This document shows positions 46,998 through 54,973 of a DNA stretch of 64,000 nt, in pieces. The position numbers and the translations under genes are program-made. Numbering within the stretch: position 1 is the first letter of the stretch; each line of letters begins with the position of its first letter. The notes under the pieces are model-generated. The model saw nothing but the letters and a program-made list of their open reading frames with translations, had not been told where the DNA came from and did no database searches. The stretch is from Clostridia bacterium (GTDB lineage: Bacteria; Bacillota; Clostridia; Peptostreptococcales; JAAYPU01): assembly GCA_016278615.1 (NCBI GenBank), contig JADQBM010000037.1:12939-76938 (forward strand), given 5' to 3'.

Positions 46998-47897
46998 TTA
47001 TTCTTCTGGTAACCAGCTATTTACTAATTCTTCATGATTCTCCATCCACTCTCTAGCAGTGTCGATTGGGTCAACATCTTCATTATCTGCAATAGCACCC
47101 ATTAAATCTCCTAATTGCTGTCCGTCTAAATAAAAGTCTGTCAAGAACTGAGCGACTTCAGGCATGTCTTCACTAAGCCCTTTACGTGTTACTGTATGAA
47201 TGTTTTCTACGCCTCCATAAGTGCCTTTGGGGTCTTCAAGAAATTTAAGGTCCCAACGAGCAAACTTCCAGTGGGGTGCCCATCCGGTTACGGCAACAGC
47301 CTCATTACTATCAATGGCCTTTTTCAATGAAGCCGTCATTGTTGGACCACTACCTGGAATCAGTTCATATTCCAATCCATACTCTTCAATGGTTGCATCT
47401 GTTGCTTTCATAATCCCAGCACCAGAGTCAATTCCAATAAGCCTTTCTTGAAATTCTTCCTTTTTATCATTCAACTCTTCAATGCTGTTGATATCTACAT
47501 ATGCAGGAACCACCAAACCAATTCGTGCTCCTTCAAAGTTGTATCCTAAATCATCTAAATCTTCTCCATATTCTTCCATGTAACTTTCATGTGTAACTGG
47601 AAGCCAAGCATCCAAAAATGCATCTGAATCGCCACTGGCAAGAGAAGTAAATATTGGCGCTACATCAGCCATAGTTGTTTCAACTTCATATCCCATCTTA
47701 TCTTCTAATATTGCTTGTGCCAGGTGTGTCATGGCCACACCTTCTGCCCAATTCACATATGCCAACTTTACGGTTCCTTTTTCTTCAGCAACGTCTGCTT
47801 GTTCTGTATCTCCTTGATCTTGAGTACAACCAAAGAGCGTACCGCTCATAATTACCACCATCAATAAAATCATGGACTTAAATAAAAACTTTTTCAT
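46998..47897 (-). CDS. opuAC: Glycine betaine ABC substrate-binding lipoprotein
   Basis: Lipobox LFGC; W.EG, AWLP.TH, GIDSGAG, GWAPHW, LEDPK. Confidence 0.92.
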   Translation of the reverse strand: MKKFLFKSMILLMVVIMSGTLFGCTQDQGDTEQADVAEEKGTVKLAYVNWAEGVAMTHLAQAILEDKMGYEVETTMADVAPIFTSLASGDSDAFLDAWLPVTHESYMEEYGEDLDDLGYNFEGARIGLVVPAYVDINSIEELNDKKEEFQERLIGIDSGAGIMKATDATIEEYGLEYELIPGSGPTMTASLKKAIDSNEAVAVTGWAPHWKFARWDLKFLEDPKGTYGGVENIHTVTRKGLSEDMPEVAQFLTDFYLDGQQLGDLMGAIADNEDVDPIDTAREWMENHEELVNSWLPEE

Positions 47898-47947: not shown

Positions 47948-48784
47948 TTAACCTGTACGAGCTTTCTTAGAATTACCTAAAGCTTGTGTCACGCGGTCCA
48001 ATACCATTGCTAAGATAACAACGGCAATACCACCTTCAAACCCTTTACCTATTTGCATCTGGGTGACGCCTTTTAATACTTCTTCCCCCAAGCCCCTTGC
48101 ACCAATCATTGCAGAAATGACGACCATGGAAAGGGCAAGCATAATGGTCTGGTTAACACCAGCAAGTATTGTAGGTGTCGCTAAGGGCAGTTGGACCTTC
48201 ATTAACATTTGTTTACTTGTAGAACCGAAGGACTTCGCAGCCTCAATAACATCTTCCGGTACTTGTCGAATGCCTAAATTAGTCAATCTCACCACAGGTG
48301 GCATAGCAAAAATAATGGTTGCTACAGCACCGGGTACTTTTCCTAAATCGAAGAAAATGACTGCTGGTATCAAATATACAAACGCTGGCATGGTCTGCAT
48401 GAAATCTAATACAGGTTTTACGATTCGGTCCACCAAATCATTTCTCGCCATCCATATTCCTAATGGGATACCAATTACTAAAGCAATCACTGTAGCTGTA
48501 AACACTAGTGCCAGGGTTTCCATTGTTTCATCCCAAAGCTGTATATTCTCTATTATTAATAGCCCTACAGCACTGAAAATTGCTACTTTTCTGCCTGCTA
48601 CTTTCCAGGCTAATAATGCAATGATTGCAATAAATACCAATGTAGGTATAAATAATAGCGTCATTTCAAACCCACTAATTAATCCTAAGATAGCCGCTTT
48701 CATGCCATCAAATACAGGTTCAAAATTTTCAGTTAACCAATCAATAAATGCTTCAAAATATTTTCCAATGGGAATTTTAGACAT
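47948..48784 (-). CDS. opuAB: Glycine betaine ABC permease
   Basis: [30 protein letters not shown]; start ATG 48784. Confidence 0.93.
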
Positions 48785-49970
48785 CTGAATTCTCCTCTCC
48801 CATAATTCCTGTAAGCACAGATACCCTAACAATAATACCGACCATCTTATTTTCTTCATCTGTCACGACAATTGGATATTTTGTATTAACCGCTATAGGT
48901 AACAAATCTATAATCGGTGTATCTGGGGAAGTCTTATGGATGTCTTTATTAATAATGCTGTCAATACTATTACCGCCTTCTTTCAATAGATTTAAAGCAT
49001 CATCTATGGTTATAATTCCTTGAATATGCCTTTCTTTATTTACAACAAAAATGCTTGATATTGCTGATTCTTTCATTTTTCTTACGGCTACACGGACACC
49101 ATCTTTTGATGAAACAATTGCATCCGGTTTTTTCATAATCGCAGCAGCTGTAACCACCTTAACTCGATTAACATCCTGTAAAAACTCTCTGACATAATCA
49201 TCAGCAGGGTTATTTAATATTTCTTCCGGTGTGCCAATTTGTACAATGACCCCATCTTTCATAATTGCGATACGATCGCCTATCTTCAATGCTTCATCAA
49301 GGTCATGGGTAATAAATACAATGGTCTTTTTCATTCGCGCCTGTAAATCTAAAAGCTCATCTTGCATTTCCTTTCGAATAAGAGGATCTAATGCACTAAA
49401 TGCTTCATCCATAAGCAGTATGTCTGCCTCAGTAGCTAAAGCTCTTGCCAGACCTACTCTCTGTTGCATTCCCCCACTTAGTTCTGAAGGCATGGATTCT
49501 TCATAGCCTTTTAATCCTACTGCTTCTAAAGCATTATAAGATTTCTTTTTACGCTCCTCTAATCCTACATCTTGAACCTCTAAACCATAGGCCACATTGT
49601 CCCAAACCGTACGATGAGGAAATAAAGCAAAATGCTGAAATACCATTGCCACTTTTTTTCTTCGTATTTCCAGTAAGGTTTCTTTACTACAGCCTACAAT
49701 GTTCTGTCCATCAATGATCACTTCTCCATCTGTAGGTTCAATCAACCTATTTAAGCACCTTATTAATGTAGATTTTCCACTTCCAGACAAACCCATAACC
49801 ACAAAGGTCTCTCCTTGTTCTACTATAAAACTCGAATTATTGATGCCAATTCCATGTCCTGTTTTTTTCAATAATTCTTCTTTTGACATTCCATTTTTCA
49901 CATGGGAAAGATTTTTTTTAGGATGGCTCCCATAAATTTTATATAAATTTTTAACCTCTACTTTGACCAT
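48777..49970 (-). CDS. opuAA: Glycine betaine ABC ATPase with tandem CBS domains
   Basis: [28 protein letters not shown]; C-terminal CBS pair. Confidence 0.95.
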
Positions 49971-50053
49971 TTCTTTACCACCACCTTCTTTATTGAATAT
50001 CTTTATGATATTTTTTAATAAGACATTAATTTAAAATAATAATGCTTTAATTC

Positions 50054-50092
50054 AAAAAAAAAGAACTCTAACTTTATTTTCATAGAGTTAGA
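50054..50092 (-). terminator. Intrinsic terminator inside the opuA leader
   Basis: RNA UCUAACUCUAU-GAAA-AUAAAGUUAGA followed by GUUC and U9, about 85 nt before the opuAA start. Confidence 0.85.
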
Positions 50093-50187
50093 ATGCCTAA
50101 GCTCGCCTTAAAGACGTTTCATTATACCATCTCAATAAGAATGGTATAGCACATTTCCTTACAGTACCTGTGCAGACCCCAGTTCTA
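50089..50187 (-). ncRNA. Candidate riboswitch/attenuator aptamer in the opuA leader
   Basis: Four hand-folded stems around a junction; the closing stem overlaps the terminator 5' arm; family not recognised. Confidence 0.55.
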
Positions 50188-50306
50188 AAAATCATTTTTC
50201 AACTATAGTTTCGTCTTTTTTCTTAACTTGTCGATACTAAAATCAGCAAAAAAAGATTACTTCCTATACCCTACTTCATGTTTCTTATTTTAAATCATTA
50301 ACTGGA

Positions 50307-50335
50307 ATTATACCGTTCATCATCCTACTTGTCAA
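50307..50335 (-). promoter_or_regulatory. SigmaA promoter of opuA
   Basis: Perfect TTGACA-17 bp-TATAAT on the minus strand. Confidence 0.9.
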
Positions 50336-50404
50336 CCATTCACAATCCAAAACCAGCTCCATAAGGCTCTGTCTTTACTATAAAATCAATGATTGTGATG
50401 ATTG

Positions 50405-50444
50405 AAAAAGAAGCAAACAAAAGATCCATTGTTTGCTCCTTCTT
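50405..50444 (-). terminator. Terminator after the large SLH gene
   Basis: AGCAAACAA...TTGTTTGCT hairpin with a T run on the minus strand. Confidence 0.65.
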
Positions 50445-50485
50445 ATATATATTACTTACTTATTACATATATTACTTATTTTATA

Positions 50486-53400
50486 TTACTTATTATATAT
50501 CCTATAAAGGAATACTGCTGTTTCTGCCCGTGTGGTGTTGCCAAGAGGATTTATTTTATCCCCATCACCTTGTATCAGTCCTTCTTTTACTAAGGAAGCC
50601 ATGCTGTCAACAGCATAGTCTGCTGCAAGGTGCTTATCGGAAAAACCGTCCAGTGTCAATGCTGTATTTTGTTCTTTTATGATTTTCAACATCTTCAAAG
50701 CTCTTTCAGTAAGCACCATCATGTCTTGTCTCGTAATGGACTCATCTGGTTTGAATAGATTGTTTCCGGTTCCATTGGTAATGCCTAGCTTTTTCGCGAT
50801 ACCAATCTCTTCATAATAATAGGCGTTTTCTTGTATGTCTTCAAAGTTTTGGTCAATCTTTGCATCCACCCCAAGAGTTCTTACAAGAAAGTATAGATAA
50901 TCTGCTCTGGTAATGGCTGCTGCTGGCATATATTGATCTTCAAACACTTCTCTCAATATCCCCTTAGAAGCCAGAACATTAATCTGATCTTTAGCCCAAG
51001 GGACGCCTCCTATGTCACTAAAGGTCTTGAATACCTGACCCACTGCATATTCACTAAAGTGAGTGGTGCTAAAAGTAACCCTACCTGTTTCTGGATCATA
51101 TCTTCCTGAAGGCACTTTTACTGCATTGCCTTCACCATCGATATACCATATAACAATATTTTCTGGATTTGCAAGTTCTTCTTCTGTAGGCGTATAAGGA
51201 ATAGATACCTCTACGGGTGCATCTGGATTGTTCCACTCAATTGTTTGGTTTCCTGCTGTAAGTTTTAGTTCAATAATGGGTCGATCGCCTATTAAATCCT
51301 GTACCTCTTCTGGAAGACCTGATGGGTCTCCATTACCTATACTGATACCAATATCTCCAGAGGATTCATGCCCTGTTCCTGTTAGCATATTACTGGGTAG
51401 AGTTATGGTCCCCACCTCACTGGACATCTGAATCATTCTGACTGAATGATCCTGAGAAAGAACCTCTGCAGGCACTTCCAATATATAATCATTGGTGTTT
51501 TCTACTGTCGGCATTTCAATCGTTACAGTCTCTTTGCCATCCTCATCTGCTTCTGATGCTCTAAAGGCACTATTAACTGCATCTGAGCTCAAGCTTATTG
51601 TTGCACTCTCTTTTGATTCATCTATATCGACTTCATAGCTCTCCTTATAATTTCCTGTCTCGATTGTAGCATTAACAGTTGGTTCAGGGGTTGATGGGGT
51701 ACTCCTACGTGAGCTTCCGCCACCACCACTCGTTGATTTTTCATCAATGGTCAGGGTAAATTCACTGCTATCTGTGTTAAGAGCATTGTCAGCCACTTCG
51801 ATGGTAAAACTAAAGGTCCCACTTTCAGTAGGGGTTCCTGATAATTCACCGTTTGGTGTTAAGCTCAACCCAGTAGGAAGATTGCCGTCAGCTAAAGAGA
51901 AACTATAAGGCGGTGTACCTCCTGTAGCAGTGAAGGTATGGCTGTAAGCTTGATCTTCGGTTCCATCAGCCAACAGACCCCTTACAATTTCCAGGTCAGC
52001 AACTATTGGAGGATCTGTTGGTTCTACCAATGCCACCGTGTGGTAAAGACCGGCGGAGATTCCTGCCCAGTCATTGACATCGTCGATCTGCGTTGGGATG
52101 TGCTTATCCGCCATAGTATCGTCACCCAATTGGCCGTACTCGTTATTACCCCAGGCCCAGAGGCTACCATTGGTCTTCAGTGCCATGGAGTGATAGCCAC
52201 CGGCGAATATTTCCGTCCAGTCGTTGGCATCACCAATCTGCGTTGGGCTGGTTCTTGAATCAGTATCATCTGCGCCCATGCCTAACTGACCATCTTCGTT
52301 GCGACCCCAAGCATACAGACTGCCATCCGTCTTCAATGCCACCGTATGATTAACACCTGCAGATATGGAAGTCCATCCGCTTTCGCCGATTTTTGTTGGA
52401 ACACCCCTTACATCAGAAATCGTATCAGTTGTACCATCACCCAGCTGTCCATTCTGGTTATTGCCCCATGACCAGAGGCTGCCGTCCGTCTTCAACGCCA
52501 CCGTGCGTTTGCTACCGGTGGATACTGCCGCCCAGTCATATTCGCTCCCAATCTGCGTCGGGATGTTTCTTGGCTGATTGTCATCCACTCCCATGCCCAA
52601 CTGGCCAAAATCGTTCTGGCCCCAGGCCCACAGACTGCCGTCGGTCTTCAACGCCAAGGAGTGAAAATCACCAGCGGATACCGCTGCCCAATCGTATGTC
52701 TCGCTAATCTTCGTCGGAGTGGGTCTGTTCACATTAGTACCGTCTCCCAACTGAAAAGATCCGTTATAGCCCCAGGCATAGAGGCTACCATCAGTTTTCA
52801 ACGCCAATGAGTGCCTGTATCCGGCAGACACCGCCGCCCAGTTGCTGTGCGTACCAATCTGCTTGGGCGTGCTGCTATTATCAGTACTACCATCACCCAA
52901 CTGTCCACGATTGTTCAAGCCCCAGGCCCAAAGGGTGCCATCCGTTTTAATCGCCAATGTGTGATATTCGCCAGTAGCTACCACCGACCAGTCATCAGCA
53001 TCGCCCATCTGCGTCGGACTGCTTCTATCATTAGTGCTACCATCGCCTAAATGAGAATACAGATTAGAGCCCCAAGTCCAGATTTCTTTCCCAGCTTCTG
53101 CTCCCGCTGGTGTTGCGTCTTGAATGACTAAGTTCTCAATACTTCCCGCTTCAACGTTCAGAACGTACACCGTAATGGTGATGGTCTCTGCCGTGTCGTA
53201 GCTGGCCGTTACGGTGTAGTTACCAGTGACACCGTCTTCCACAACACTCACCAGCGTCAGTGATCCGGTACCGTTTTCGTTGATGTTGAAATCACCCTCA
53301 TCCAAATCGCTGACCGGATTATTCCAAACATCACGAACCTGAGCCGTAAAAGTGAAGTTCTGGTTCTCTTCCGGACTTACGGGGTCGCTCGTTAGTATGC

Positions 53401-54973
53401 TAGATGAGTCAACCATCAGTGTGCCATTGTTAATGGACCAGTCATACAAGTCAGCTCCATCCTTACCATCACCGGTTTTCGCTGTAAAAGTCCCTACAAA
53501 TGGCTCTGTCATTTCATAATTAGCCCAGTTTCCACTTAAAGTACCACTGCTGTCTCCCACTATCCGACCAAAGTTAGTACTTGCTGAACTCGCCATTCTA
53601 AGAATCCCTGTATTTAGAGCATAGCTGTTACTCACAGTTCCCCCCAAAATCTGTCCTACCAGGCCTCCAGTCAGCTGTCCTCCCGTTACGCTCCCTGTAG
53701 CGAAAGATTCCGTTACGACACTACCTGCAAGCTGCATTCCACCTACCAGTCCTCCTACTCTGGAATTAGTAGCACTCACATCGCCCGTAGCATAAGAGTT
53801 CTCGATTATACCTACACTAGTATTCCAACCATTTTCGCCTACCAGACCACCGACCCTATTAGTGCCTTCAACATTACCTTCGGCATATGAACCACTAATT
53901 TCATCAATGTTTCTTCCTACCAATCCTCCGATATACATTCCGGTACCATCAACAGCTCCTGTTGCATAGGAGCCCTCAATGGCTCCACTGTTGTATCCTG
54001 TGAGACCTCCTAAGTACTCAGCACCTTGCACGACACCCTCTGCATATGAATAGCTTATTGTCCCGTTATTGCTTCCTGCTAAACCGCCAATGGATTGAAC
54101 TCCCGACACATCCACCTGAGCATAGGAATCGCTGATTGAACCAAAGTTGCCTCCTGCCAAGCCGCCCACGCCGTTCCAATTTCCAGAAACTGTGCCTGTG
54201 GCGTAACCCTCTGTAATCGTCCCCAAGCTTCTTCCTACCAGAGCTCCAACCGATTCATAGCCTGTTACATTAATATCCGTTAAGCCCAAATCATAGATCT
54301 CAGCTCCAATACCTACATAGCCAAACAAGCCAACATAATATGTATTGGATCTATTGATAAAGAGATTCATAATGGTATATCCTCTACCGTCAAGTGTCCC
54401 GATAAATCTGTCATCAGATGTACCAATGGGCTCCCAGCCTTCTCCCGTGTTATACGGTCCCACATCTAGGTTTATAACAGACCCCAACTCAAAAGCTGCA
54501 CTCAGATGATACCTAACCGCATCCAACTGGTCCCCATTGATAATGACATAAGGATTCCCAGAATCTCCAGTTCCGCTTTCAAAAACAGCATTGACCACAA
54601 TTACATCAGCAAAGCTCGTCAATACCCCACTGTCCAAGGCTGCCACGTCGCCTGCCGTGTAACTGACAGTGACCCCGTCAGTTTTACTAACAGGTGCGCC
54701 ATCGACGGTCAATTTTATTTTTGTAGCGTCACCTTCCTGCAGTGTAATCGCAGAAAAAGAACGAACATCTGTTCCATTGAATTCGACGCTGAACTGATCC
54801 TGTTTATCAGCAGGATCTGCCATATCCTTGTCAAAGTTAAGAATAATCTCTGTACCTTCCCCATTGGTGGTGGCTCGGTTCAGCACTGGGGCGTCAGCTG
54901 CAAAAATAGGCATACTAAATCCTATAGATAAAACCACTATCACCGTTAGAAAAATTATGTGTTTCCATCTCAT
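50486..54973 (-). CDS. Large cell-surface protein: signal peptide, Ig-like, GLUG repeats, RCC1 beta-propeller, Ig, three SLH
   Basis: GGLVG.N...I..SYA.G.V repeats; about seven HT.A.KTDGSLWAWG.N..GQLG repeats; GGTPPY.F/LPTGLSL; SLH motifs ITRAD, ITRQD, TTRAE. Confidence 0.9.
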   Translation of the reverse strand: MRWKHIIFLTVIVVLSIGFSMPIFAADAPVLNRATTNGEGTEIILNFDKDMADPADKQDQFSVEFNGTDVRSFSAITLQEGDATKIKLTVDGAPVSKTDGVTVSYTAGDVAALDSGVLTSFADVIVVNAVFESGTGDSGNPYVIINGDQLDAVRYHLSAAFELGSVINLDVGPYNTGEGWEPIGTSDDRFIGTLDGRGYTIMNLFINRSNTYYVGLFGYVGIGAEIYDLGLTDINVTGYESVGALVGRSLGTITEGYATGTVSGNWNGVGGLAGGNFGSISDSYAQVDVSGVQSIGGLAGSNNGTISYSYAEGVVQGAEYLGGLTGYNSGAIEGSYATGAVDGTGMYIGGLVGRNIDEISGSYAEGNVEGTNRVGGLVGENGWNTSVGIIENSYATGDVSATNSRVGGLVGGMQLAGSVVTESFATGSVTGGQLTGGLVGQILGGTVSNSYALNTGILRMASSASTNFGRIVGDSSGTLSGNWANYEMTEPFVGTFTAKTGDGKDGADLYDWSINNGTLMVDSSSILTSDPVSPEENQNFTFTAQVRDVWNNPVSDLDEGDFNINENGTGSLTLVSVVEDGVTGNYTVTASYDTAETITITVYVLNVEAGSIENLVIQDATPAGAEAGKEIWTWGSNLYSHLGDGSTNDRSSPTQMGDADDWSVVATGEYHTLAIKTDGTLWAWGLNNRGQLGDGSTDNSSTPKQIGTHSNWAAVSAGYRHSLALKTDGSLYAWGYNGSFQLGDGTNVNRPTPTKISETYDWAAVSAGDFHSLALKTDGSLWAWGQNDFGQLGMGVDDNQPRNIPTQIGSEYDWAAVSTGSKRTVALKTDGSLWSWGNNQNGQLGDGTTDTISDVRGVPTKIGESGWTSISAGVNHTVALKTDGSLYAWGRNEDGQLGMGADDTDSRTSPTQIGDANDWTEIFAGGYHSMALKTNGSLWAWGNNEYGQLGDDTMADKHIPTQIDDVNDWAGISAGLYHTVALVEPTDPPIVADLEIVRGLLADGTEDQAYSHTFTATGGTPPYSFSLADGNLPTGLSLTPNGELSGTPTESGTFSFTIEVADNALNTDSSEFTLTIDEKSTSGGGGSSRRSTPSTPEPTVNATIETGNYKESYEVDIDESKESATISLSSDAVNSAFRASEADEDGKETVTIEMPTVENTNDYILEVPAEVLSQDHSVRMIQMSSEVGTITLPSNMLTGTGHESSGDIGISIGNGDPSGLPEEVQDLIGDRPIIELKLTAGNQTIEWNNPDAPVEVSIPYTPTEEELANPENIVIWYIDGEGNAVKVPSGRYDPETGRVTFSTTHFSEYAVGQVFKTFSDIGGVPWAKDQINVLASKGILREVFEDQYMPAAAITRADYLYFLVRTLGVDAKIDQNFEDIQENAYYYEEIGIAKKLGITNGTGNNLFKPDESITRQDMMVLTERALKMLKIIKEQNTALTLDGFSDKHLAADYAVDSMASLVKEGLIQGDGDKINPLGNTTRAETAVFLYRIYNK

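What the first reader, a model, noticed from the sequence alone, without database searches (positions are those of the whole stretch)
49971..50335. Orphan riboswitch candidate controlling the opuA osmoprotectant transporter
Seen: a perfect sigmaA promoter gives a ~330-nt leader containing a U9 terminator before opuAA. Directly upstream the RNA can form a four-way junction: P1 UAGAA-CUGGG (50187-50178) with CUUAG-GCA-UUCUA (50101-50089), P2 GCACA/UGUGC (50173-50149) around GGUACUGUAAGGAAA, P3 UAUACCAU/AUGGUAUA (50148-50123), P4 CGUCU/AGGCG (50116-50104). P1 overlaps the terminator 5' arm, as in a switch. Established: opu genes can be controlled by c-di-AMP and Na+ riboswitches, but I cannot match this to either. 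Inference: a variant or new osmotic/ion-sensing RNA.
Basis: partly seen in the sequence, partly recalled or inferred. Interest (0 to 1): 0.76.

Follow-up and report, generated by a model that had tools for sequence, protein, structure and literature searches.

The report
New osmoprotectant-gene leader RNA class
The stretch before this betaine-transporter operon encodes a large folded RNA with a built-in stop signal, found before salt-protection genes in several bacterial phyla and matching no catalogued RNA family, so it is probably an undescribed sensor of osmotic stress.

Summary
The promoter, the ~330-nt leader, the U9 terminator and stems P2, P3 and P4 are all present. The RNA is also larger than described, because a conserved 5' domain starting at GAAGUA precedes the four-way junction.

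A covariance model built from four leaders found full-length copies in 30 of 151 genomes of the same order. A sequence pattern found at least 122 more stretches, in Clostridia, Fusobacteriota and Spirochaetota. On a MAFFT alignment of 94 distinct copies, 58 pairs in 10 helices are 93.2% paired, and 51 pairs show changes on both sides. None of 500 shuffles reached these values.

The 3' strand of P1 is also the 5' arm of an intrinsic terminator (at least 90 of 92 copies). The folded RNA should therefore allow read-through, making it an ON switch.

The first downstream genes are BCCT and OpuA-type betaine transporters, ablA/ablB, glutamine synthetase and amino-acid importers.

Rfam 15 gave no match at the element, in the window or in 40 homologous loci, and ten literature searches found no name. 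The ligand is unknown. I favour a cation or ionic-strength signal, but this is inference only.

The parts
50307..50335 (-). Promoter: -35 TTGACA 50335-50330, 17-nt spacer, -10 TATAAT 50312-50307
   Evidence: scores it 12 of 12. The same TTGACA/TATAAT is kept in G001 and G005. A promoter-like consensus lies about 20-30 nt upstream of GAAGUA in the alignment of upstream flanks of 94 copies. The transcription start is inferred, not mapped.
50193..50280 (-). 5' domain, a long irregular hairpin. P0 is CAU 50280-78 / AUG 50195-93. GAAGUA lies at 50277-72 opposite GAAAA at 50200-196. Pa is 50271-64 / 50208-01. AGUA lies at 50261-58 opposite GAAA at 50212-09. The distal part is 50257-50213.
   Evidence: A GAAGUA-type anchor (85 GAAGUA, 9 one- or two-base variants) lies 65-162 nt upstream of the junction in all 94 distinct copies. 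Helices 1-4 are 86-92% paired and 25 of their 26 pairs change on both sides. The window's distal part is shortened (85 nt against the usual 99-120) and lacks the Pc/Pd hairpin of most copies.
50084..50186 (-). 3' domain, a four-way junction. P1 is AGA 50186-84 / UCU 50086-84, an internal loop, GGG 50180-78 / UUC 50093-91, bulge A50094, then GUCU 50177-74 / AGGC 50098-95. P2 is 50173-69 / 50153-49 with a distal loop. P3 is 50148-40 / 50131-23. P4 is 50116-12 / 50108-04.
   Evidence: Model R1 scores this stretch at 114 bits, E 1.8e-27. Helices 5-10 are 94-99.7% paired. The AGA/UCU pairs are nearly invariant, so they are neither supported nor refuted by covariation.
50054..50094 (-). Intrinsic terminator: 5' arm AUUCUAACU 50094-50086, loop, 3' arm AGUUAGAGU 50073-50065, then UC and U9 at 50062-50054
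   Evidence: The 5' arm shares 50094-50084 with the 3' strand of P1. An equivalent hairpin plus U-run occurs in 90 of 92 evaluable copies by script. By eye, one of the two misses (L192) also has one.
49978..49988 (-). Shine-Dalgarno region GAAGGUGGUGG before the opuAA start codon
   Evidence: Read from the sequence. It is not part of the conserved RNA.
48777..49970 (-). opuAA / proV-type ABC ATPase with CBS domains (397 aa)
   Evidence: NCBIfam TIGR01186 proV subfamily scores 451 bits against a cut-off of 326.6.
47948..48859 (-). opuAB permease (303 aa)
   Evidence: Pfam BPD_transp_1, E 2.9e-28
46998..47897 (-). opuAC glycine-betaine-type substrate-binding protein (299 aa)
   Evidence: Pfam OpuAC, E 1.3e-72

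Best explanation
The opuA leader carries one member of a widespread and apparently unnamed class of cis-acting leader RNAs, about 190-270 nt long. Each has a 5' rod-like domain with two AGUA/GAA internal loops and a 3' four-way junction.

The 3' strand of the junction's closing helix P1 is also the 5' arm of an intrinsic terminator. The folded RNA and the terminator therefore exclude each other. When the fold holds, RNA polymerase reads through into the transporter genes (ON). When it does not hold, transcription stops at the U-run (OFF).

The class controls compatible-solute uptake and synthesis genes. The signal that stabilises the fold should therefore report hyperosmotic stress.

Shown here: conservation, covariation, gene association, and the overlap with the terminator.

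Inferred: that the element acts in cis by attenuation, the ON polarity, and direct sensing. My leading guess for the signal is a monovalent cation or ionic strength (K+ or Na+). This is a guess from the regulon and the polarity, not a result.
For: Conservation:
- R1, built from four leaders, finds full-length matches (model positions 1-108) at E <= 1.7e-6 in 30 of 151 genomes of the order, and at E <= 0.1 in 36 of 151.
- It finds matches in 9 of 151 genomes of the class at E <= 1e-4.
- I gave 79 of those stretches to the model, and all 79 match.

Structure, on a MAFFT alignment not fitted to any structure (A7, 94 distinct sequences):
- 58 pairs are 93.2% paired, against 72.6% in shuffles.
- 51 pairs change on both sides.
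- 0 of 500 shuffles reach any measure.
- Controls with the partner slid by 1-3 columns give 35-45% paired.
- The 25 best covarying column pairs of an all-against-all scan are all pairs of this model.

Switch:
- A terminator hairpin plus U-run uses the last 14 nt of the motif in 90 of 92 evaluable copies.
- In the window, the secondary-structure energy model prefers the terminator fold (-56.4 kcal/mol) over a fold forced to keep P1 (-41.5 kcal/mol). This fits a default-OFF element.

Regulon, counting the first same-strand gene in 96 distinct loci:
- BCCT 36
- ABC ATPase 23, of which all 10 full-length ones carry CBS domains
- OpuAC 3
- ABC permease 3
- KamA-type radical SAM 10
- AblB-type GNAT 4
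- PALP or PALP-GNAT 3
- amino-acid permease 2
- SBP_bac_3 4
- glutamine synthetase 3
- no family 5
- One of the five without a family (L192), and one locus first left without an ORF (L132), resolved with longer flanks to an amino-acid permease and an OpuA-type ATPase. A further copy (L263) precedes an OpuAC gene.
- AblA and AblB calls pass the NCBIfam equivalog cut-offs.
- No ion transporter was seen among these genes.

Not a known family.
Against: - No ligand was tested or can be tested here.
- The window sequence alone folds no better than shuffles (z -1.62).
- 79 of the 100 sequences given to the model were collected with a pattern that fixes the last 22 nt. Invariance of that stretch, including the P1 3' strand, is therefore partly by construction. 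In the pattern-free order sample, most of the 30 copies still carry CACUCUAACUCU.
- The AGA/UCU pairs and the conserved UAGAAC have no covariation. An alternative pairing of UAGA with UCUA cannot be excluded.
- The window's own copy has a shortened distal 5' domain and a weak distal P2. It may work less well than typical members.
- The forced-P1 fold is about 15 kcal/mol less stable than the terminator fold in the energy model. A large stabilisation must therefore come from tertiary contacts or a ligand.
- No RNA-seq run holds the locus, so transcription and termination are not observed.
- The literature library is incomplete, and the supplements of the two main discovery papers could not be read.
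Confidence: 0.72

Rival explanations
1. It is a second, structurally unrelated class of c-di-AMP riboswitch.
For: - The regulon overlaps that described for c-di-AMP riboswitches and for tandem Na+/c-di-AMP switches, which include ablA/kamA and osmolyte genes (PMC9337991 and PMC5737381, passages read).
- Five motif-bearing genomes from records labelled Mollicutes, Planctomycetota, Propionigenium, Spirochaetia and Acetobacterium all encode a DAC domain (5 of 5).
- None of those five has an RF00379 match (0 of 5).
Against: - The P1 3' strand is the terminator's 5' arm, so a ligand that stabilises the fold turns genes ON.
- By established c-di-AMP physiology (recalled, and as described in PMC9337991), c-di-AMP represses osmolyte and K+ uptake, and the known class is an OFF switch.
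- The window's own genome has a canonical c-di-AMP riboswitch, before a LysM cell-wall hydrolase. The two RNAs therefore coexist.
- There is no sequence or structure match to RF00379.
Confidence: 0.08
2. The fold is read by a macromolecule, either an RNA-binding antiterminator protein or a tRNA or other RNA, in the manner of T-box or protein-dependent attenuators. It is not read by a small ligand.
For: - The architecture is two-domain: a long 5' stem with AGUA/GAA loops, then a 3' antiterminator that overlaps a terminator. This resembles T-box leaders in outline (my recollection of T-box anatomy).
- GA-rich internal loops are common protein-binding sites.
- Long stretches of invariant sequence (UAGAACUGGGG, CACUCUAACUCU) would suit recognition by a conserved partner.
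Against: - There is no match to the T-box model, although that model finds a true T-box in locus L107.
- The regulon is osmolyte genes, not aminoacyl-tRNA-related genes.
- No candidate regulator gene was noticed beside the loci, but this was not analysed systematically.
- The class spans at least three phyla by record label, so a protein partner would have to be equally widespread.
Confidence: 0.13
3. It senses an organic solute directly, such as glutamate or a compatible solute like glycine betaine.
For: - The proX motif was proposed to sense such solutes (PMC8632094, passage read).
- Glutamine synthetase and amino-acid importers are in the regulon.
Against: - ON polarity would make a compatible solute induce its own further uptake and synthesis, which is positive feedback.
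- The regulated systems handle chemically different solutes: betaines, N-acetyl-beta-lysine and glutamine. This argues for a common upstream stress signal. Glutamate remains possible.
Confidence: 0.1
4. It is a free-standing small RNA gene that ends at its own terminator. It acts in trans, and its position before osmolyte genes is incidental.
For: - It has a strong promoter and a strong terminator.
- Weinberg et al. 2017 describe conserved motifs with 3' terminators that are not 5' UTR elements, such as FuFi-1 and drum (PMC5737381, passage read).
Against: - 91 of 96 loci have a same-strand gene of one functional theme starting within about 360 nt downstream.
- The terminator shares its 5' arm with a covarying helix.
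- No Rfam match to FuFi-1 or any other family.
Confidence: 0.03

Closest known systems
c-di-AMP riboswitch (ydaO-yuaA, Rfam RF00379)
   Same: It is a leader RNA of Firmicutes and other phyla, tied to osmotic-stress genes and acting through a terminator. The regulon overlaps (osmolyte transport, ablA/kamA).
   Different: No model match. The fold differs: a 134-position pseudo-symmetric model against a two-domain RNA with a four-way junction. Polarity is opposite (known OFF switch against inferred ON). Both occur in the window's genome, before different genes.
Na+-I riboswitch (DUF1646 motif, Rfam RF03071)
   Same: It is an ON switch whose aptamer overlaps the terminator, and some members control osmolyte synthesis genes such as ablA (PMC9337991, passages read).
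   Different: Na+-I is a 55-position, two-stem motif, mostly before Na+ transporters and Na+-ATP synthase genes. It has no match in the window or in the window's genome. No Na+ transporter was seen among the first downstream genes of the 96 loci here.
T-box leader (Rfam RF00230)
   Same: The overall plan matches: a long 5' stem with an S-turn-like AGUA/GAA loop, then a 3' antiterminator that competes with a terminator. The total length is about 200-250 nt. The anatomy of T-box is recalled, not tested.
   Different: No model match at the element, while a real T-box is found in L107. No T-box sequence or specifier features were looked for or seen. The regulon is not amino-acid charging.
proX motif (Brewer et al. 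2021, PMC8632094) and opuB motif (Narunsky et al. 2024, PMC11109978)
   Same: Both are orphan riboswitch candidates before glycine-betaine/proline-type ABC transporter genes.
   Different: - proX: 17 representatives, Spiribacter and saltwater metagenomes, RBS occlusion.
- opuB: 205 representatives, mostly Enterobacteriaceae, five stems with the SD inside P1, and a ligand said to relate to shikimate/aromatic metabolism.
- The present class is in Clostridia, Fusobacteriota and Spirochaetota, uses a terminator, and also controls BCCT, abl and glnA genes.
- Their alignments could not be compared directly.
M-box Mg2+ riboswitch (ykoK)
   Same: Works like, by analogy only: a large multi-helix leader whose compaction by cations decides between terminator and antiterminator (recalled).
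   Different: No model match. M-box is an OFF switch for Mg2+ transporters. No cation binding has been shown for the present RNA.

Membership tests
c-di-AMP riboswitch (RF00379) | Match to the family covariance model at or near its gathering score | tested here: not met
   No hit in the window at gathering score. No hit at E up to 10 in 49900-50500. No hit at the element in 40 homologous loci. Positive control: 83.3 bits elsewhere in the same genome.
c-di-AMP riboswitch (RF00379) | OFF-switch arrangement, with the aptamer apart from the terminator | tested here: not met
   The 3' strand of P1 is the 5' arm of the terminator.
Na+-I riboswitch (RF03071) | Match to the 55-position two-stem model | tested here: not met
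   No hit in the window or in the whole genome at E <= 0.1.
Li+/Na+-II riboswitches (nhaA-I motif) | Match to the family model in Rfam | tested here: not met
   No hit of any Rfam family on the RNA's strand within the element. That the family is in Rfam 15 is my recollection.
T-box leader (RF00230) | Match to the family model | tested here: not met
   No hit at the element. Positive control: 129.4 bits for a T-box at L107 333-574.
proX and opuB motifs (Breaker laboratory orphans) | Same consensus sequence and structure | not testable with these tools
   Their alignments are in supplements that could not be read or held no relevant text. The described lineage, size and expression platform differ.
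Riboswitch (generic) | Conserved structured domain with covariation | tested here: met
   51 of 58 pairs change on both sides, 93.2% paired, 0 of 500 shuffles.
Riboswitch (generic) | Position in 5' leaders of functionally coherent genes | tested here: met
   91 of 96 loci precede osmolyte-related genes on the same strand.
Riboswitch (generic) | Expression platform that overlaps the conserved domain | tested here: met
   A terminator uses the last 14 nt of the motif in 90 of 92 copies.
Riboswitch (generic) | Direct, selective ligand binding without protein | not testable with these tools
   Needs in-line probing, ITC or in vitro transcription.

The most novel reading that the evidence does not exclude
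This is the first RNA sensor of the primary osmotic signal. The two-domain fold is stabilised by a rise in cytoplasmic K+, or in ionic strength generally. It thereby switches on the second phase of osmoadaptation, meaning compatible-solute import and synthesis, in Clostridia, Fusobacteriota and Spirochaetota. This would be a K+ or ionic-strength riboswitch, a class not reported in the literature searched.
Probability: 0.25. Interest if true: 0.95.

Novelty: new variant of a known kind. Interest (0 to 1): 0.82.

Why it matters
How bacteria turn a physical change in osmolarity into transcription of compatible-solute genes is known only for a few protein systems and for c-di-AMP. A large, strongly covarying RNA sits before BCCT, OpuA, ablA/ablB and glnA genes in at least three phyla. 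It offers a directly testable sensor for that step.

The ON polarity and the absence of ion transporters from its regulon point away from c-di-AMP and away from Na+ detoxification. Whatever it senses would be a new input to osmoregulation.

It also gives annotators a marker for osmostress regulons in poorly studied anaerobes. Cultured carriers exist for experiments, for example Propionigenium maris DSM 9537, Acetobacterium paludosum DSM 8237 and Maledivibacter halophilus M1 (record titles).

Tried and rejected
- **Rfam 15.** The whole window at gathering score gave 0 hits. Positions 49900-50500 at E <= 10 gave 8 weak hits. None lies on the minus strand inside 50040-50300. The best, SraC/RyeA, is on the plus strand at E 0.095. 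The minus-strand hits at 50397-50452 lie on the terminator of the upstream gene. Forty homologous loci gave only an unrelated T-box in L107 and a sub-threshold bglG-cis-reg hit in 1 locus (L182, 35.3 bits against a cut-off of 80), which overlaps the terminator. I took that as chance.
- **Exact pattern from the P2 loop.** It gave 90 stretches. By my own arithmetic this is about what chance gives for 18 fixed bases in this collection. nhmmer showed that only three genomes carried the whole element. That pattern was too narrow.
- **My first P1 model (UUAGAA/UUCUAA as an outer helix).** It was used in R1, but only 71% of its cells pair and its two end pairs are mostly unpaired. I replaced it.
No covariation.
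- **A 32-codon ORF in the window leader.** The frame is not kept in G005 and G001, where a 1-nt indel falls inside it, so I rejected a leader peptide.
- **A pseudoknot or inter-domain pairing.** The all-against-all covariation scan gave nothing beyond the nested helices. That scan is crude.
- **Expression data.** No RNA holder is listed for the locus, and read laying was not used.
- **Phyletic test against c-di-AMP.** All 5 genomes tested encode a DAC domain, so it does not discriminate.
- **Literature.** Ten searches found no name. One search was noisy, because 'abla' also matches 'ablation'.
- **Supplements.** Those of PMC5737381 and PMC11109978 could not be read. That of PMC8632094 held no relevant term.
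- **Earlier findings of this scan.** Nothing relevant.

Full report
**What is in the window**

On the minus strand, a perfect sigma-70-type promoter (TTGACA 50335-50330, 17-nt spacer, TATAAT 50312-50307; 12 of 12) precedes the opuA operon. The opuAA ATG lies at 49970, about 330 nt downstream. The operon encodes a ProV-type ATPase with CBS domains, a permease and an OpuAC binding protein.

A hairpin (5' arm 50094-50086, 3' arm 50073-50065) followed by UC and nine U (50062-50054) lies about 85 nt before the start codon. The consensus terminator scan missed it because the stem is A+U-rich. The window sequence folded alone is not more stable than its shuffles (z -1.62, 13 of 200 shuffles). The sequence by itself therefore proves nothing.

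**Known families**

- Rfam 15 gives no hit at gathering score in the 64-kb window.
- At E up to 10, nothing matches on the RNA's strand within the element.
- The same library finds a canonical c-di-AMP riboswitch elsewhere in this genome. It sits before a LysM cell-wall hydrolase.
- It finds no Na+-I riboswitch in the genome.
- Forty homologous loci searched in the permissive mode gave no family at the element.

**Relatives**

blastn found the leader in two genomes of the same family, before opuAA orthologues. It also found it in a genome of another family, before a BCCT transporter. That was the first sign of a modular element.

A covariance model of the junction region (R1) found full-length matches as follows:
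- 30 of 151 genomes of the order at E <= 1.7e-6, and 36 of 151 at E <= 0.1
- 3 of the 6 genomes held for the family
- 9 of 151 genomes of the class at E <= 1e-4

By record title, the 80 loci fetched with flanks comprise 50 Bacillota/Clostridia, 20 Fusobacteriota, 7 Spirochaetota, one Planctomycetota MAG, one 'Mollicutes bacterium' and one record labelled Lutibacter. I gave 79 of them to the model and all 79 matched.

**Structure**

A GAAGUA-type anchor lies 65-162 nt upstream of the junction in all 94 distinct copies: 85 read GAAGUA and 9 carry a one- or two-base variant.

A MAFFT alignment of the whole RNA (A7) was folded with RNAalifold in a script. This gave 58 pairs in 10 helices.

5' domain:
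- a 3-bp P0
- GAAGUA opposite GAAAA
- an 8-bp Pa
- AGUA opposite GAAA
- Pb, then a Pc/Pd hairpin

3' domain:
- P1, made of AGA/UCU, an internal loop, GGG/CUC, a bulged A, then a 4-bp segment
- P2 with a distal extension
- P3
- P4, flanked by GU..AC and GA/GAA

On this alignment, which was not fitted to any structure:
- 93.2% of cells pair, against 72.6% in shuffles.
- 51 of 58 pairs change on both sides.
- No shuffle of 500 reaches any measure.
- Sliding the 3' partners by 1-3 columns gives 35-45% paired.

The 25 best covarying column pairs of an all-against-all scan are all pairs of the model.

AGUA/GAA loops look like S-turn (loop E) motifs, and several G-U pairs are conserved. Those labels are my recollection and were not tested.

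The window's copy maps cleanly onto the model. Its distal 5' domain is shortened, as in two other copies that lack it altogether.

**Switch**

The last 14 nt of the motif hold the 3' strand of P1. In 90 of 92 evaluable copies they pair with a downstream segment, forming a hairpin followed by a U-run. By eye, one of the two misses also has such a terminator.

The 5' arm (CACUCUAACUCU) is nearly invariant, while the 3' arm varies by A-to-G changes that keep pairing. This shows that the 5' arm is constrained by more than the terminator. This invariance is partly by construction for the pattern-derived copies, but most of the 30 pattern-free copies show it too.

P1 and the terminator exclude each other, so the folded RNA is the antiterminator and the element should be an ON switch. 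In the window, the energy model prefers the terminator fold (-56.4 kcal/mol) to a fold forced to keep P1 (-41.5 kcal/mol). That fits a default-OFF state which needs extra stabilisation. This polarity is inferred from anatomy, not measured.

**Regulon**

The first same-strand gene was tallied in two samples. After removing 11 shared loci, this gives 96 loci:

| First downstream gene | Loci |
|---|---|
| BCCT | 36 |
| ABC ATPase (the 10 full-length ones all carry CBS) | 23 |
| OpuAC | 3 |
| ABC permease | 3 |
| KamA-type radical SAM | 10 |
| GNAT | 4 |
| PALP or PALP-GNAT | 3 |
| amino-acid permease | 2 |
| SBP_bac_3 | 4 |
| glutamine synthetase | 3 |
| no family | 5 |

Longer flanks resolved one unassigned locus (L192) to an amino-acid permease. 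They also resolved one locus first left without an ORF (L132) to an OpuA-type ATPase, and added an OpuAC case (L263).

NCBIfam names the GNAT as AblB and the radical SAM enzyme as AblA, both above the equivalog cut-offs.

The theme is uptake or synthesis of compatible solutes: betaines, N-acetyl-beta-lysine, and glutamine or glutamate. No K+ or Na+ transporter was seen. Genomes can carry one to three copies.

**What it senses**

This cannot be decided here. ON polarity and a regulon limited to the compatible-solute phase of osmoadaptation fit a signal that rises on hyperosmotic shock. By established physiology (recalled), cytoplasmic K+ with glutamate, or Na+ in marine anaerobes, is such a signal. 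I hold this as the leading guess at about one in three.

c-di-AMP is made by all five carriers tested, and none of those five has the canonical c-di-AMP riboswitch. That keeps it alive as a rival. But c-di-AMP represses osmolyte uptake wherever it has been studied, and the known class is an OFF switch (PMC9337991, passages read). An ON switch for it would be paradoxical.

A protein or RNA partner (T-box-like logic) and an organic solute such as glutamate also remain possible.

**Novelty**

Ten full-text searches found no named motif with these properties.

I read passages of five papers:
- PMC11109978: the opuB motif, found in Enterobacteriaceae with the SD inside P1
- PMC8632094: the proX motif, found in Spiribacter with 17 representatives
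- PMC9337991 and PMC9646797: Na+-I, Na+-II and Li+ classes
- PMC5737381: FuFi-1, drum and others, which are rarely in 5' UTRs

The supplements of PMC5737381 and PMC11109978 could not be read. Most candidate motifs of those papers are described only there. I rely on Rfam 15 to cover the 2017 set. The claim is therefore 'not found in Rfam 15 nor in the text searched', not 'never described'.

**Verdict**

This is a real, strongly supported structured leader RNA of a class that I could not find named. It controls osmoprotectant genes by terminator/antiterminator competition. The ligand is open.

Noticed in passing
L106:1632-3005 (+); also L159 and L193: A fusion of a PALP (threonine-synthase/cysteine-synthase-like) domain with a GNAT acetyltransferase domain sits directly behind the RNA in three loci. 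It passes no NCBIfam equivalog cut-off. It may make an uncharacterised N-acetylated osmolyte.
   Followed up: partly
G000:C90:13344-13483 (-), locus L254: The window's genome has one canonical c-di-AMP riboswitch (83.3 bits). It sits before a LysM plus cell-wall-hydrolase gene, not before an osmolyte transporter.
   Followed up: yes
G296-G300 (genomes of L156, L187, L170, L132, L134): Five carriers of the new RNA all encode a c-di-AMP synthase domain, but none has an RF00379 match at E <= 0.001.
   Followed up: partly
L197 (JADPRS010000018.1, titled Lutibacter sp. B2) against L107: The element in this record is identical to that of a genome of the window's own order (G077). The Bacteroidota label of the record may be a mislabel or contamination.
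   Followed up: no
window 50404-50444 (-) and 50486-54973 (-): The upstream gene encodes a 1495-aa protein. It ends with its own hairpin terminator just before the opuA promoter. The protein was not examined.
   Followed up: no
L107:333-574 (+): A bona fide T-box leader (129.4 bits) lies about 900 nt upstream of the new RNA in this locus. It belongs to a separate gene.
   Followed up: no
window 50213-50257 (-): The distal part of the window's 5' domain is about 25-30 nt shorter than in its closest relatives G001 and G005. It lacks the Pc/Pd hairpin. Two other copies (L123, L124) lack this part entirely, so it may be dispensable.
   Followed up: partly
window 49700-50400: DNA runs holding at least half of the sampled words of this stretch are 4 rows from 2 studies, all labelled mine drainage metagenome. 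Two of them may be the source of the assembly.
   Followed up: no
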